Source: a virus
Length of the DNA stretch: 64,000 nt
IMG/VR virus record: IMGVR_UViG_3300011988_000002
Coordinates: 1 to 64,000 of that record
Strand: one strand, 5' to 3'
Both the position numbers and the translations under genes were made by a program. The notes below the pieces were generated by a model. The model saw only the letters and a program-made list of their open reading frames with translations, did no database searches and had not been told where the DNA came from. Shown piece by piece: positions 12,715 to 17,348 of this stretch (within the stretch, counting starts at the first letter, position 1; each line of letters opens with the position of its first letter).

Positions 12715-14526
12715 CTAACTTATTCCTATAACTATATCATTTGCTTGTAAATCTATTCCTTTAACTCCAAGTGCAGACCTAGATACAAGTTTTATAGTGC
12801 TTGTATCACAAACTAAGCTTTTACCCATCTTAGTATATATAAGGATAGATTCCTCACTTGTCTTTCTTACCATTGCAACTATTCTGTTATTATGTTTAGT
12901 TTGTGTACATTTAACTCCTGCTCCATTTCTATTCTGTACTTTAAACTCATCTGGATTACATCTTTTAATATAACCCGATTCTGTTACAAATACAACAGGA
13001 GTATTACCATCAACTCTACACATAGAACTTACAAAGTCTTTTTCATCTTTATCAAGTTTTATACCACTAACTCCTACAGCTCCAATTCCAGTAGGTTTAA
13101 TTTCATTACTATCTATTCTTATACACATTCCATTATGTGTTGCAATGAGTATGTCTCTTTCTTTGGAGCTATCTGGAATTATAACTATATCAACTATCTT
13201 ATCAGCACTGTCAACACCAATTAAGTTCTTTCCATTTGCATTAATCTTTTTAAGATTTTTAAGGTCTGTTGATTTTACCATTCCTTTAACAGAACAGCTA
13301 ATAAGAGTTCCAAATTCATTATTATTTACAAATACAAGAACTATATTTTCACTGTCTCTAAGACTTAGTAAGTTTCTTGCAAGTGCTCCTCTTGCAAGTT
13401 TTGATACAGTATCAATCTCATAAGCTTTCTTAGTGTAAACCCTACCTTTAGAAGTTAAAAACACAAGTTGCTGTCTTGCTGTTACATTAAGAACTTGCTT
13501 TATTTCATCCCCTTCTAGTAAAGTTCCTACTGAGTTTCCTTTTCCTCCACGTCTTTGTTCTTTGTCAAGAGGTTCTGTACGTTTTATATAACCTTTTTGT
13601 GTCATTATAATAGTACATGGTTCATCAGGAATTGTATCCTCTTCTGTTATATCATCTCTTTTCTTTTGTATCTTTGTTTTACGTGTAAGATAAGGCTTTG
13701 CTTCTTTGATATTTCTTATATCTTCCCATTCCTTAATCATATACTCGTCTACATCTTTATTAGATTTAGTTCTTGTAAGTCTTGTAAGTGTTTTAATTCT
13801 TTCTTTTACATCTTTTTCCTCTTCTCTTGCATCACTCATATTAAGCTTTGTAAGTCTTGCAAGTTTAAGGTCTAGTATATACTGAGCTTGAGCTTCAGAT
13901 AACTTAAAAGACTTCATAAGTTCTTCTCTTGCAGAAGATGTATCTTTTGCATTGCGAATAATCTTTACGGCTCTGTCTATATCTTTAGTAACTATAAATA
14001 AACCTTCAAGTATATGAAGTCTGTCTTCATTTTTCTTAAGTTCTATCATAAACTTATTATGAAGACAAGTTTCCCTAAAAGAAATAAATGAACTCATGAT
14101 ATCTTTTATATTAACTTTCTCTTTAAACTTACCATTCACAAGTAAGTTATGTAAAGGTTTTAGCACTTTCTCAAAAGGAGTTTTATGTATAAGAAGAGAA
14201 ACTACTCTGTCTATAGTTTCTCCTTTTGCTAAATCTATACATATTCTAATACCACCTTTTTGAGTAGTCTCATCTCTTATGTCTTTTATATTGAGCTCCC
14301 CGTTATCAACTAATGTTCCAACAGCAATAGTTATATCTGGTATTTTAGTATTATAAGGAATAGAAGTAATAACTAGTCTTTCATTACCTTTACTATCCTT
14401 TTCTACTTTATATTCACCTCTTACTCTTACATATCCATCACCACTTGTATAACATCTTTTAAGTCCGTCTGTTCCATTTATAATACCCCCTAATGGAAAG
14501 TCAGGACCTTTTATTATTTCATACAT
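12715..14526 (-). CDS. gyrA: DNA gyrase / topoisomerase IV subunit A homolog, C-terminal part (from the GPDFP motif onward)
   Basis: The motifs MYEIIKGPDFPLGG and AQYILDLKLARLTKL are colinear with GyrA. It is in the same frame as the upstream fragment, separated from it by a single TAA. Confidence 0.8.
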   Translation of the reverse strand: MYEIIKGPDFPLGGIINGTDGLKRCYTSGDGYVRVRGEYKVEKDSKGNERLVITSIPYNTKIPDITIAVGTLVDNGELNIKDIRDETTQKGGIRICIDLAKGETIDRVVSLLIHKTPFEKVLKPLHNLLVNGKFKEKVNIKDIMSSFISFRETCLHNKFMIELKKNEDRLHILEGLFIVTKDIDRAVKIIRNAKDTSSAREELMKSFKLSEAQAQYILDLKLARLTKLNMSDAREEEKDVKERIKTLTRLTRTKSNKDVDEYMIKEWEDIRNIKEAKPYLTRKTKIQKKRDDITEEDTIPDEPCTIIMTQKGYIKRTEPLDKEQRRGGKGNSVGTLLEGDEIKQVLNVTARQQLVFLTSKGRVYTKKAYEIDTVSKLARGALARNLLSLRDSENIVLVFVNNNEFGTLISCSVKGMVKSTDLKNLKKINANGKNLIGVDSADKIVDIVIIPDSSKERDILIATHNGMCIRIDSNEIKPTGIGAVGVSGIKLDKDEKDFVSSMCRVDGNTPVVFVTESGYIKRCNPDEFKVQNRNGAGVKCTQTKHNNRIVAMVRKTSEESILIYTKMGKSLVCDTSTIKLVSRSALGVKGIDLQANDIVIGIS

Positions 14527-14529
14527 AGC

Positions 14530-15141
14530 TTATGTTGTAATACTTCTGTTTTTTATATATTCTATACATAAATTTATTACATCATTAAGGTTATGTGGTA
14601 AAAAAGATGCTGCAAATCCAACTCCTATACCAATGTTTCCATTTATTAATATATCTGGTAAAATTTCTGGAAAATAAAGAGGCATAAGTAAACTATCATC
14701 ATAATTAGGAATATACTCTACAACATCTTTTGCTAAATCTTTAAGTATTATCTTTTCTGTATACCAATTTAATTTACACTCAGTATATCTTTTATCAGCC
14801 TCTTGGTCTGCTGAGATAGAACCAAAATTTCCATTTGGTGATATATAAGGTATATTCATAGAGAAATCTTGTGCCATATTTACAAGTGTTCCATATGCAG
14901 ATGAGTCACCATGTGGATGATATTTACCTATGACTTCTCCGACTATTCTTGCAGATTTTACAAAAGGACCATTATAACTTACCTTTAAATCGTGCATAGC
15001 ATATAAAACTGCAAGTGATGATGGCTTTTGATTATCTTCAATATTAGAAATTGCTCTTCCTTGTATAACCATTCTAGCATAGTCTATATAACTTTCAGAA
15101 AGGTCATCTATTATATCTTTCTCTTCTATAATTGCAGCCAT
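14530..15141 (-). CDS. gyrA: DNA gyrase / topoisomerase IV subunit A homolog, N-terminal fragment with the catalytic tyrosine
   Basis: VLYAM, GKYHPHGDSSAYGTLVNMAQ and the active-site block DKRYTE (Tyr) are present. It ends ...IEYIKNRSITT then TAA. A GGAGGA Shine-Dalgarno lies upstream. Confidence 0.8.
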   Translation of the reverse strand: MAAIIEEKDIIDDLSESYIDYARMVIQGRAISNIEDNQKPSSLAVLYAMHDLKVSYNGPFVKSARIVGEVIGKYHPHGDSSAYGTLVNMAQDFSMNIPYISPNGNFGSISADQEADKRYTECKLNWYTEKIILKDLAKDVVEYIPNYDDSLLMPLYFPEILPDILINGNIGIGVGFAASFLPHNLNDVINLCIEYIKNRSITT

Positions 15142-15144
15142 CTT

Positions 15145-15308
15145 TTATCCTCCTATAATCATTTCTTTTCTCATTTTAGTATCTTTACCCATAATTCCAG
15201 ATATTACTTCATCTGTCTTAGATTTATCTTTCATTGTGATTTTTACAAGTCTATAAGAACTTCTATCTAAAGTAGTTTCATACAAATCTTTTGGGTTCAT
15301 TTCTCCTA
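15145..15308 (-). CDS. gyrB: DNA gyrase subunit B homolog, exon 2 (C-terminal 54 codons)
   Basis: After splicing it reads (L)GEMNPKDLYETTLDRSSYRLVKITMKDKSKTDEVISGIMGKDTKMRKEMIIGG, colinear with the GyrB C-terminus GLGEMNPEQLWETTMDP... Confidence 0.75.
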
Positions 15309-15607
15309 CGAATAGTATGCTAATTTTTTAATCACATCTACCCCGACTATATCTTCACCTCTATTAGAGGGTACACCATTTCTTATTACATGAGTGCAAT
15401 TAACTCAAAACCTTATCTTCTATAAGGAAATCTACTCTTGTTATATATCTCTACATAACCGCCTAGTCTGTGAACGTTAAATTATACTTCTATAAAGTCT
15501 TCGCTACTGATTATTCATTTAGGCAACACTTTGGTATCCTAAAGACCTCCCAGTATAAAAATGTATTATTCCAAAACATCACTGTTTTTCGGGGCTAGTT
15601 TTCGTCA
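15309..15607 (-). mobile_element. Group I self-splicing intron (299 nt, no ORF) in gyrB
   Basis: Exon 1 ends AAAGGGU and the intron ends ...CUAUUCG. It has an R-like element GUUCACAGACUAG and an S element AAGAUAUAGUCGG. The internal guide sequence CUAGCCC pairs with GGGU to form P1 and with UAG of exon 2 to form P10. Unspliced read-through stops at TGA after 9 codons. Confidence 0.8.
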
Positions 15608-17348
15608 ACCCTTTGAAACGAGTTACCATAAAATTTGTAATTCCTTTATCTTTAAGCTCTTTTACATACCTATCTTTATCATTATCTGTATCAAAGTAAG
15701 TTATTTTCTTACCTTGTATTACTCTATACAGAGGTGGACATGCTGAATAAAGTTTTCCTTCTTGTATTATCTCTGGCATTAATCTAAAGAAAAGAGTAGT
15801 AAGTAATGTACGAATATGTGAACCGTCTAAATCTCGATCGGTCATAATTATAATTTTACCATATCTCATTTTTTTAATGTCAAATGTATCTAAATATCCT
15901 GCACCTATAGCATTTATTATAGAACGAACCTCTTCATTCTTTAATATCTCTACCAAATCTTTCTTTTCAACATTTGCTATTTTACCTCTTATTGGAAGTA
16001 TAGCTTGATGAGTTACATCTCTACCTTGCTTAGCACTCCCAGCTGCTGAATTTCCTTCACAAATTAGAAGCTCTCTATCTTCTACTTTAGTATGACTTGA
16101 GCAATCTGCAAGTTTGCCTTTAAATTTATCAACCATACTTTTCTTAGTATCAGAATTTGCATCTTTTATTTTACGTATTTCTTCTCTTTGCTTTCTGGTT
16201 TTCATAATCCTATTAAGTATTATATTTGCTTCTTTAGGATTATCTGTTAGATATAGCTCAAGTGCACTATAAGTGCTACTGCTCACCATACCTACAAGCT
16301 CTGGATTATTTACCTTTGCTTTAGTTTGACCTTCAAACTCAGGTTTACCCATTTTAACAGATACAACTGCCATAAGACCTTCAAGAACCTCACTACCTTC
16401 AAAGTTTTGGTCCTTATCTTTAAGGAAACCTGTGTCTCTTGCAATCTTATTTATAACTCTTGTAAGACCTGTTCTAAAACCTTGCTCATGAGTACCTCCA
16501 TTTATCATACGAAGATAGTTTACATAAGACCTTATGTTATCTTGTGATTTATCATGATAAGCAAGAACTATTTCTACTTTATCAGTTCCTTCTCCTTCTT
16601 TTGCTGGACCTTCTCCTGTAAAATAGAAAGGTTTGCAAATAAGACTACGTTCTGTTTCTTTTGCTATTTTATCAAGAAGTTCTGTTATTCCTCCTTTTGA
16701 ATAAAATACTTGTTGCTCTCCAGTACGTTCATCAGTAACTGTAAACTTAAGTCCACGAGTTATATAAGCAGCTCCTAAACAGAAATCGCATATTTGGTTA
16801 AATTTAAACTCTTGTGTTGCTTTAAATATCTTTGGACTTGGTTTAAACTTAACTATAGTACCTGTATCTAGTGATTTACCAATTTCTTCAACTGGTGTAA
16901 GTACCTTACCAAAGGAATATCTTTGTCTAAATACCTTTCCTTCACGATGTACCGTAACTATTGCATCGTCTGATAAAGCACAAACTGCTTTACATCCAAT
17001 TCCATGAAGTCCAATACTATGTCCATAAGTAGAATTATCAAGTTTTCCTGTTGAGTTCATAACTGTAAATAGAACTTGTAGTGTTGGTATTCCGTATTTT
17101 TTGTGTGGAGCTACTGGAATACCTCCTCCATTATCTTCAATTGAGATATATCCATCTTTTGTAATAACTACATTTATATCAGTACAAACACCCCTTGCAT
17201 ATTCATCTATTGAGTTTGAGATGATTTCTATTGCAAGATGATGAAGCCCAATATTATCTGTATTCCCTATATACATAGCTGGACGAAGTTGAAGTGGTTC
17301 TAACCCTTCCATTACCTCAATTGCATCTGCTGAGTAAGATTTACTCAT
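15608..17348 (-). CDS. gyrB: DNA gyrase subunit B homolog, exon 1 (ATPase, transducer and TOPRIM domains)
   Basis: Motifs HLAIEIISNSIDE, EGNSAAGS, PIRGKI and IMTDRDLDGSHI are present, and it ends at RFKGL, part of the KGLGEM motif. Confidence 0.85.

What the first reader, a model, noticed from the sequence alone, without database searches (positions are those of the whole stretch)
15309..15607. ORF-less 299-nt group I intron interrupts the phage gyrB homolog inside the KGLGEM motif
The GyrB-like ORF ends at ...RFKGL+TKTSPEKQ*, stopping at TGA. The 437-nt gap before gyrA has no annotated ORF, yet its last 164 nt encode (G)EMNPKDLYETTLDRSSYRLVKITMKDK...MIIGG, colinear with the GyrB C-terminus. 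Splicing at AAAGGGU^ ... CUAUUCG^UAGGAGAAAUG yields KGLGEMNP exactly. The intron carries a recognisable R-like element (GUUCACAGACUAG) and S element (AAGAUAUAGUCGG). It also has an internal guide sequence CUAGCCC that pairs with both exon ends.
Basis: seen in the sequence. Interest (0 to 1): 0.75.

Follow-up and report, generated by a model that had tools for sequence, protein, structure and literature searches.

The report
Group I intron splitting phage gyrB
A 299-base self-splicing-type RNA (a group I intron with no gene of its own) sits inside the gyrase B gene of a large uncultured phage. It is real and cleanly delimited, but it is an ordinary member of a class of mobile introns long known in phage DNA-metabolism genes.

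Summary
Confirmed. On the minus strand, the gyrB-like ORF (17348..15579) stops 8 codons after ...FKGL. The missing C-terminus (GEMNPKD...MIIGG) lies 299 nt downstream. Joining U15608 to U15308 gives a 634-aa protein that aligns end to end with solved ParE/GyrB structures.

The 299 nt (15309..15607) carry the group I hallmarks:
- a U•G pair at the 5' splice site in P1;
- a terminal G;
- a guide sequence, CUAGCCC, that pairs with both exon ends;
- canonical P/Q/R/S core elements;
- extra hairpins between P7 and P3', as in subgroup IA.

Rfam Intron_gpI matches only below threshold (28.5 bits against a cut-off of 50; E=3.8e-5 in a 901-nt search).

The comparative evidence is the strongest:
- Five related phage contigs read FKGLGE straight through.
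- Nine distinct intron variants share identical boundaries, with 99% of cells paired and six compensatory pairs.
- The intron is 86-96% identical where the flanking exons are only 67-76% identical, so it has probably moved between alleles.
- One metagenomic variant carries an HNH-family-like endonuclease ORF in the P6 loop, so this copy is probably an ORF-less form of a mobile intron.

Splicing itself is untested. This is a new member of a known kind, of modest interest.

The parts
15608..17348 (-). gyrB/parE-like exon 1. It encodes residues 1-580 plus the first base of the Leu581 codon. Read without splicing, it runs on for 8 codons (TKTSPEKQ) to a UGA at 15581-15579.
   Evidence: ORF list. 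Pfam HATPase_c, DNA_gyraseB and Toprim. PDB ParE/GyrB alignment.
15309..15607 (-). ORF-less group I intron, 299 nt. It begins after U15608 and ends with the terminal G (omega-G) at 15309.
   Evidence: Rfam RF00028, 28.5 bits, E=3.8e-5. Identical boundaries in 9 variants. Precise absence in 5 relatives. Structure counts.
15145..15308 (-). gyrB exon 2. It supplies the last two bases of the Leu581 codon, then GEMNPKD...MIIGG and the stop codon TAA at 15147-15145. The gyrA ATG follows 3 nt later, at 15141.
   Evidence: Gene callers on identical public contigs list it as a 51-aa DNA_gyraseB_C ORF.
15592..15611 (-). P1. Exon GGGU (15611-15608) plus intron UG pairs with the internal guide CUAGCCC (15598-15592). 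U15608•G15595 is the wobble pair at the 5' splice site. The CUA of the guide (15598-15596) can instead pair with exon-2 UAG (15308-15306), forming P10.
   Evidence: Predicted de novo by RNAalifold. 9 of 9 variants are paired, and G•U becomes A-U at the sixth pair.
15573..15588 (-). P2 hairpin, 6 bp, with a GNRA loop (GUGA here; GCAA or GAAA in relatives). The in-frame UGA that ends the unspliced reading frame lies in this loop.
   Evidence: One pair covaries: A-U, G•U and G-C.
15559..15566 (-). P3 5' strand (AUACAUUU). It pairs with 15381-15373 (AAAUG-G-UGU), which forms the P3/P7 pseudoknot.
   Evidence: Assigned by hand. All 8 pairs are standard in 9 of 9 variants but none varies, so there is no covariation support.
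15505..15555 (-). P4 (UACUGG at 15555-15550 with UCAGUA at 15510-15505, the P and Q elements) enclosing P5 (15545-15538 with 15523-15515).
   Evidence: P4 has one compensatory pair (A-U to G-C). P5 has two.
15464..15475 (-). R element GUUCACAGACUA. It contains the 3' strand of P6 (GU) and the 5' strand of P7 (C-A(bulge)-GACUA), which is the guanosine-binding helix.
   Evidence: Exact match to the Rfam consensus block. Unique in the window.
15391..15459 (-). Three peripheral hairpins between P7 and P3'. P7.1 is 15459-15440 (8 bp, GAGA loop). P7.2 is 15427-15411. A third hairpin is 15407-15391.
   Evidence: P7.1 has two compensatory pairs. The other two hairpins do not vary. Rfam treats this ~100-nt region as an insertion.
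15344..15370 (-). P8 hairpin (15370-15358) followed by the S element AAGAUAUAGUC (15355-15345), whose UAGUCG (15349-15344) is the 3' strand of P7.
15309..15343 (-). P9 / P9.0 terminal hairpin (15343-15310), ending immediately before the terminal G at 15309.
   Evidence: Three pairs change on one side only and stay paired.

Best explanation
This is a group I self-splicing intron with subgroup-IA-like architecture and no ORF. It is inserted within the Leu581 codon of the KGLGEM motif of a phage type IIA topoisomerase B-subunit gene (gyrB/parE-like).

Proposed mechanism (inferred from the anatomy and from the established group I pathway, not observed):
1. gyrB and gyrA are transcribed together, and the intron folds into a P1-P9 core.
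2. A free guanosine bound in P7 attacks the phosphodiester after U15608, which is held in P1 by a U•G wobble with the guide sequence.
3. The freed 3'-OH of U15608 attacks after the terminal G15309, with exon 2 aligned by a 3-bp P10.
4. The ligated mRNA encodes a complete 634-aa subunit.
5. Unspliced RNA would instead give a 589-residue product (580 GyrB residues plus 9 intron-encoded residues, including a Leu581 read from intron bases) that lacks the GyrB C-terminal domain.

At the DNA level it is a mobile element. It is present or absent at exactly the same nucleotide in related phages, and it is better conserved than the surrounding exons. One variant also carries an HNH-family-like endonuclease ORF. 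The copy in this window is therefore most likely an endonuclease-less form. It persists because it splices, and it could spread only by recombination or with an endonuclease supplied in trans.
For: Shown here:
- The splice junction restores a collinear 634-aa protein.
- RF00028 aligns over its full length, with exact R and S blocks.
- RNAalifold independently recovers P1 with U•G at the proposed site, plus P2, P4, P5, P7, P7.1, P7.2, P8 and P9.
- The full model is 99.0% paired. It has 6 pairs and 20 cells with compensatory change, against 0-1 pairs in the slid controls, and 0 of 500 shuffles reach the observed covariation score.
- Five relatives (L001, L004, L006, L009, L010) read F-K-G-L-G-E with no insert.
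- All intron-bearing alleles have GGG-U|UA at the junction, complementary to the guide. Intron-less alleles have GGA and varied Leu codons.
- Against L002, L003, L032, L038 and L039 the intron is 86-94% identical but the flanking exons are only 67-76% identical.
- L033 carries the same intron 3' half and exon 2, with a 196-aa ORF that ends inside P7.1 and matches PHROG 'HNH endonuclease' families (E=2.3e-33).
- The same genotype, with an identical intron, is assembled in at least 3 independent samples.
Against: - The Rfam score (28.5 bits) is below the gathering cut-off of 50. The match disappears when the whole window is searched, because of the speed filters.
- The minimum-free-energy z-score is unremarkable (-0.5).
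- The covariation rests on 9 closely related sequences that fall into about two clades, so each compensatory pair may be a single event. The structure was also derived from these same sequences.
- P3, P6, P7, P7.2 and the third hairpin never vary, so they are supported only by the consensus.
- No RNA evidence of splicing is available.
- No endonuclease homolog lies in this window, so the present mobility of this copy is inferred.
Confidence: 0.88

Rival explanations
1. Split gene. The insert is not removed from the RNA. GyrB is made as two chains: a 589-residue N-terminal product, and a 51-aa C-terminal peptide translated from its own AUG (15300), which follows an AGGAG.
For: The window does have AGGAGAAAUG at the start of exon 2. 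Gene callers list a separate 51-aa DNA_gyraseB_C ORF. Split topoisomerase subunits do exist in phages (T4 genes 39 and 60; my own knowledge).
Against: - The AGGAG and AUG are simply the conserved G-E-M codons. Only 2 nt separate them, which is too short for efficient initiation.
- In L002, L003, L032, L033, L038 and L041 the same intron is followed by GELNP, with no start codon at or just upstream of it.
- This reading does not explain a conserved ribozyme core with compensatory changes, or the U•G and terminal-G boundaries.
Confidence: 0.04
2. Decayed intron. The sequence descends from a group I intron but no longer splices efficiently, so gyrB in this phage is a pseudogene or is dispensable.
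For: - There is no endonuclease ORF.
- The Rfam score is below threshold.
- The adjacent gyrA in this particular window carries an in-frame TAA, which could hint at decay of the operon.
Against: - Every core pair is intact in this copy, and variants keep pairing through compensatory changes, which implies selection on the fold.
- Both exons remain open and conserved.
- The gyrA stop is a single-base difference from three otherwise identical public contigs, in which gyrA is an intact 808-aa ORF.
Confidence: 0.07
3. Translational recoding: stop-codon read-through or ribosomal bypass of the gap, as in T4 gene 60.
For: A topoisomerase subunit gene is the classic host of the 50-nt bypass (bioRxiv 10.1101/2022.08.31.505936, listed).
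Against: The gap is 299 nt, with many stops in all three frames. Exon 2 is in a different frame from exon 1. The insert has ribozyme features, not bypass features.
Confidence: 0.01

Closest known systems
Group I introns of phage DNA-metabolism genes (T4 td, nrdB, nrdD; Bacillus phage SPO1/SP82/Bastille DNA polymerase; Staphylococcus phage Twort nrdE and orf142). Reviewed in PMC12908238 and PMC2988022.
   Same: - A self-splicing-type RNA interrupts an essential replication or nucleotide-metabolism gene at a highly conserved motif.
- Presence/absence polymorphism among related phages.
- The optional endonuclease ORF sits in a peripheral loop, and some versions are ORF-less.
- Extra P7.1/P7.2-type hairpins typical of subgroup IA. 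More than 50% of viral group I introns are IA2 (PMC11835236).
   Different: - The host gene is gyrB/parE. I found no report of a group I intron in a gyrase or topo IV gene in three full-text searches.
- No detectable nucleotide similarity to any GenBank phage record.
- Three hairpins, rather than two, lie between P7 and P3'.
Group I introns of gut jumbo 'Jug' phages (PMC12880540)
   Same: Large uncultured human-associated phages whose essential genes are peppered with short group I introns and homing endonucleases. In that study, splicing was confirmed for about half of the tested introns by metatranscriptome reads.
   Different: This is a different phage lineage (relatives are ~240 kb and this window is 29% G+C, against 360-402 kb Bacteroides/Phocaeicola phages). 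That paper lists topoisomerase IV among the conserved single-copy core genes of Jug phages and does not name it among its examples of intron-interrupted genes (terL, nrdD, DNA polymerase).
T4 topoisomerase genes 39/60 (split by a mobile element, with a 50-nt translational bypass)
   Same: A phage type II topoisomerase ATPase/Toprim subunit gene is disrupted by a selfish element and still yields a functional enzyme.
   Different: The mechanism is entirely different. T4 uses two polypeptides and ribosome hopping. Here the anatomy predicts RNA splicing that restores one chain.
Inteins in GyrB and GyrA (PMC4760082)
   Same: Selfish elements that insert at conserved catalytic motifs of gyrase subunits and remove themselves to restore the protein.
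   Different: Inteins splice at the protein level and stay in frame. This insert has stops in all frames and an RNA catalytic core.

Membership tests
Group I intron (Rfam RF00028) | Score at or above the curated gathering threshold (50 bits) of the family covariance model | tested here: not met
   There is no hit at gathering. In a 901-nt search the score is 28.5 bits, E=3.8e-5, over the full model (positions 1-253). The shortfall comes from the ~100-nt P7.1-P7.3 insertion, which forces the model's P3' and P8 into gaps. The whole-window E-value search loses the hit to the speed filters.
Group I intron | 5' splice site follows a U that forms a U•G wobble in P1 with an internal guide sequence | tested here: met
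   U15608•G15595. P1 is predicted de novo. U•G is present in 9 of 9 variants.
Group I intron | Intron ends with a G (omega-G), and the 3' exon can pair with the guide sequence (P10) | tested here: met
   G15309 is invariant in 9 of 9 variants. Exon-2 UAG pairs with guide CUA (3 bp), and L007 keeps the pairing through G•U.
Group I intron | Conserved core: P4 (P/Q), P6, and P7 (R/S) with a bulged A and the G-binding pair; P3 and P8; P3-P7 pseudoknot topology | tested here: met
   The R and S blocks are identical to the consensus. P4, P5 and P7.1 show compensatory changes. P3, P6, P7 and P8 are fully paired, but P3, P6 and P7 do not vary and P8 changes on one side only. The ordered Q-R-S combination is absent from 100 shuffles.
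Group I intron | Precise excision restores the host reading frame; intron-less alleles exist | tested here: met
   Junction KGLGEM, 634 aa, collinear with ParE/GyrB. Five intron-less relatives.
Group I intron | Guanosine-dependent self-splicing of the RNA | not testable with these tools
   This needs in-vitro transcription with GTP and Mg2+, or RNA-seq junction reads.
Subgroup IA (IA2-like) | Additional helices P7.1/P7.2 between P7 and P3' | tested here: met
   There are three hairpins at 15459-15391, and P7.1 has two compensatory pairs. Subgroup-specific covariance models were not available, so the IA2 assignment itself is not tested.
Mobile (homing) group I intron | Encodes, or is mobilised by, a site-specific homing endonuclease that cuts the intron-less allele | tested here: inconclusive
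   This copy has no ORF, and no homolog lies in the window. Variant L033 has an ORF in the P6 loop that matches PHROG HNH-endonuclease families, but only their C-terminal part, with no Pfam test run on it (related ORFs from relatives gave no Pfam hit). Intron identity exceeds exon identity, which argues for past transfer.

The most novel reading that the evidence does not exclude
The Toprim and C-terminal part of gyrB in this ~240-kb phage clade may be an arena for competing selfish introns. Relatives carry up to three independent insertions, at CEG|NSA, DLD|GSH and KG(L)GEM. They occur in every combination, with interchangeable cargo: HNH-like endonucleases, or a Phd/Doc-like toxin-antitoxin pair.

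On this reading the ORF-less site-C intron spreads between gyrB alleles that differ by about 30% without an endonuclease of its own. It would rely on an endonuclease supplied in trans by an ORF-bearing sibling during co-infection, or on reverse splicing. Intron carriage would then influence which phage wins a mixed infection.
Probability: 0.25. Interest if true: 0.55.

Novelty: new member of a known kind. Interest (0 to 1): 0.3.

Why it matters
- Annotation. Gene callers split this gene into a 'truncated' 589-aa GyrB and an orphan 51-aa DNA_gyraseB_C peptide. Recognising the intron restores one 634-aa subunit.
- Host range of the element. It adds gyrase/topo IV to the list of phage replication genes invaded by group I introns. 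I found no earlier report in the searched literature.
- Conserved targets. With the two further insertion sites in relatives, it illustrates again that mobile introns target the most conserved catalytic motifs.
- A usable data set. The natural series of intron-plus and intron-minus alleles, and of ORF-plus and ORF-minus forms, is ready material for studying the homing-endonuclease life cycle in uncultured jumbo phages.
- No new biochemistry. It does not open a new mechanism.

Tried and rejected
- Rfam at gathering threshold on the window and on nine related loci: no hits.
- Rfam in E-value mode on the whole window and on 47 kb of loci: no hits, because the filters are stricter for long input. 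Only short-range searches show the match.
- Thermodynamic stability: z=-0.5 on the sense strand and -1.0 on the antisense strand, so it is uninformative.
- blastn of the intron against 50,697 GenBank phage records: only two short chance-level hits.
- tblastn of the spliced protein against the same collection: best identity 42%, and none of the 30 listed top hits is interrupted at this site.
- Exact 22-mer from the intron in IMG/VR: no match.
- R...S pattern in 185,579 reference genomes: no match, so the host was not identified.
- tblastn of the relatives' intron ORFs (endonucleases, Doc) against the window: nothing.
- Pfam on the two relatives' endonuclease-like ORFs tested (L003 site A, L001 site B) and on the neighbouring window ORFs: nothing.
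- Other readings considered and rejected: translational bypass, intein and frameshift (stops in all frames, 299 nt, RNA core).
- tRNA scan of the window: none found.
- I did not build a custom covariance model.

Full report
**1. What is in the sequence**

All genes around the finding are on the minus strand. The ORF at 15579..17348(-) encodes 589 aa, with HATPase_c, DNA_gyraseB and Toprim domains, and ends ...VTRFKGLTKTSPEKQ*. A 51-aa ORF (15145..15300) begins MNPKDLYETT..., and gyrA starts 3 nt after its stop. The 437 nt between the gyrB stop and gyrA have stops in all three sense frames.

Joining U15608 to U15308 removes 299 nt (15309..15607). The junction reads AAA GGG U|UA GGA GAA AUG, that is KGLGEM, and the ORF is 634 aa. 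The spliced protein aligns without a break over residues 4-630 with S. pneumoniae ParE (4juo, E=1.6e-139). The segment 'vtrfkglgemnpkdlyett' pairs with 'lqrykglgemnadqlwett' there. Pfam DNA_gyraseB_C covers residues 572-631, across the junction. ParE and GyrB score almost equally, so I call the gene a type IIA topoisomerase B subunit (gyrB/parE-like).

**2. Is the insert a ribozyme?**

Database match. Rfam finds nothing at its curated threshold. A search of 15000-15900 gives Intron_gpI at 15338-15616(-), 28.5 bits, E=3.8e-5, over the whole model. The P, Q, R (GUUCACAGACUA) and S (AAGAUAUAGUC) blocks align exactly. About 100 nt between P7 and P3' are treated as an insertion, which accounts for the low score. 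The ordered Q...R...S combination occurs once in the window and in none of 100 shuffles.

Consensus folding. RNAalifold had no knowledge of group I rules. On five variants it predicted these helices:
- P1 (GGGUUG/CUAGCCC), with the U•G wobble exactly at the proposed 5' splice site;
- P2, with a GNRA loop;
- P4 and P5;
- P7 (GACUA/UAGUC);
- two hairpins after P7 (P7.1 and P7.2);
- P8;
- a terminal P9 that ends one base before the last G.

Completed model. I added the P3 pseudoknot (15566-15559 with 15381-15373), P6 and a third hairpin, then counted pairs on nine distinct variants (alignment A3). The results:
- 99.0% of 720 cells form standard pairs.
- Six pairs (in P2, P4, P5 twice, P7.1 twice) change on both sides and stay paired.
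- Slid controls give 34-44% paired and 0-1 such pairs.
- None of 500 shuffles reaches the observed covariation score.

Caveats. The nine sequences are 86-99% identical and fall into about two clades. The structure was derived from them. P3, P6, P7, P7.2 and the third hairpin never vary. Thermodynamic stability is no better than that of shuffled sequence (z=-0.5).

Guide sequence. The alternative of cutting one base later would leave an intron ending in U instead of G, so the junction is unambiguous.

**3. Comparative evidence (the strongest part)**

Ten IMG/VR loci encode 74-99% identical GyrB proteins. tblastn shows that this gene carries insertions at three sites in different combinations (residue numbers):
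- Site A: CEG432|N433SA.
- Site B: DLD508|G509SH.
- Site C: within the Leu581 codon, which is our site.

Site C is occupied in the window and in L002, L003, L005, L007 and L008. It is empty in L001, L004, L006, L009 and L010, which read TTCAAAGGA-TTG/TTA/CTT-GGAGA, that is FKGLGE, without interruption. A metagenome scan added L032, L035, L036, L038, L039 and L041. All nine distinct variants have the same boundaries.

Every intron-bearing allele has GGG-U|UA at the junction, which is complementary to the guide. Intron-less alleles have GGA and varied Leu codons.

Against L002, L003, L032, L038 and L039, the intron is 86-94% identical to the window copy. The 240 nt of exon 1 and 156 nt of exon 2 that flank it are only 67-76% identical. 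An insert better conserved than the essential gene around it, in two exon backgrounds (GEM and GEL), indicates movement between alleles.

In the GEL alleles exon 2 has no start codon at or near its beginning. This argues against a separately translated C-terminal peptide.

**4. Mobility**

The window copy has no ORF. L033, a 1.66-kb metagenome contig, has the same 3' half of the intron and the same exon 2. A 196-aa ORF replaces the P6 loop and terminates inside P7.1. That ORF matches PHROG families annotated as HNH endonuclease (E=2.3e-33), though only their C-terminal part. The related ORFs from relatives that I tested have no Pfam hit, so catalytic competence is unknown.

No homolog is present in this 64-kb window. 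I infer that the window copy is the endonuclease-less stage of a homing-intron life cycle. I did not test whether it is still mobilised in trans.

**5. Comparison with what is known**

Group I introns in phage DNA-metabolism genes, inserted at conserved motifs and with or without endonuclease ORFs, are textbook material (PMC12908238, PMC2988022). More than half of viral group I introns are subgroup IA2 (PMC11835236). Gut jumbo phages carry about 18 group I introns per genome (PMC12880540).

The intron here has the IA hallmark of extra helices between P7 and P3'. It shows no nucleotide similarity to any GenBank phage record. No GenBank phage GyrB is more than 42% identical, and none of the 30 listed top hits is interrupted at this site. 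Three full-text searches found no report of a group I intron in a gyrase or topoisomerase IV gene. Absence from that library is not proof of novelty.

Verdict: a new member of a known kind.

**6. Provenance**

The exact exon-1 product occurs on 7 public contigs. Three of them (from ERZ27279303, SRR1779502 and SRR1779497) are identical to the window over 4.5-7.8 kb except for one base. Related IMG/VR contigs are about 240 kb long. The window is 26-34% G+C. The host was not identified: the intron pattern is absent from 185,579 reference genomes.

**7. Confidence**

- That this is a group I intron by sequence and structure: about 0.93.
- That it splices in vivo to give the 634-aa protein: about 0.85.
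- Overall for the stated explanation: 0.88.

Noticed in passing
window 14530-14532 (minus strand TAA), between ORFs 14530..15141 and 12715..14526: gyrA is broken by an in-frame TAA: ...CIEYIKNRSITT*AMYEIIKGPDFP. Pfam DNA_topoisoIV covers profile positions 1-172 in the upstream ORF and 175-429 in the downstream one. Three otherwise identical public contigs (L042-L044) have G instead of T at window position 14532 (GAA, Glu) and an intact 808-aa GyrA. All 20 related loci also have Glu here. The stop is therefore a single-base peculiarity of this window: a rare variant, an assembly or sequencing error, or an edit. It is not recoding and not another intron.
   Followed up: yes
L002:5163-6112, L003:5297-6273, L004:4119-4411, L007:5309-6263, L009:4861-6121, L010:3091-3477 (empty in the window; equivalent point is between 16053 and 16052): Relatives carry a second, unrelated group I intron in gyrB at CEG|NSA, the Toprim catalytic-Glu motif. 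It has a classic core: AAUUGCGGGAAA...GUUCAGAGACUAGGG...AAGAUAUAGUCC. Rfam gives 28.6 bits, E=7.9e-5, for the L010 copy. It occurs ORF-less (about 290-390 nt) or with different cargo in the P6 loop.
   Followed up: partly
L002:5140-6140 and L007:5280-6290 (site-A intron cargo): In two relatives the site-A intron carries no endonuclease. It has a ~50-aa ORF overlapping (ATGA) a 124-aa Fic/Doc-family ORF with the HPFSDGNKRTA motif (Pfam Fic, E=7.6e-18). This is the layout of a Phd/Doc-type toxin-antitoxin operon, here inside a group I intron. A full-text search returned no title or abstract describing such cargo (the papers themselves were not read). It could be the most unusual thing in this gene family, but it lies outside the window.
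   Followed up: partly
L001:5528-6826, L002:6341-6668, L005:5528-5858, L006:5528-5855, L009:6350-6687, L010:3709-4999 (empty in the window; equivalent point is between 15825 and 15824): There is a third insertion site in relatives, at DLD|GSH (the Toprim DxD motif). The insert is about 330 nt, or about 1300 nt with a 315-aa HNH-family-like ORF at its 5' end. It ends ...CUAUUCG like the site-C intron, but Rfam gives no hit. It is presumably another intron, but its type was not established.
   Followed up: partly
L033:1-800: This is an ORF-containing version of the very intron in the finding. A 196-aa ORF related to the ORFs in the site-A and site-B inserts (shared motifs: W..F.NFY.W and LDKDIL...YSP..C.F.P) fills the P6 loop and ends inside P7.1. 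The contig is cut, so exon 1 and the 5' half of the intron are missing.
   Followed up: partly
window 15579-15581: The in-frame UGA that terminates unspliced translation lies in the GUGA loop of P2, upstream of the catalytic core. Relatives with GCAA or GAAA loops lack this stop; in L002, read by eye, the frame stays open about 30 codons into the core. Whether an early stop helps folding or splicing here, as has been discussed for T4 td, was not examined.
   Followed up: no
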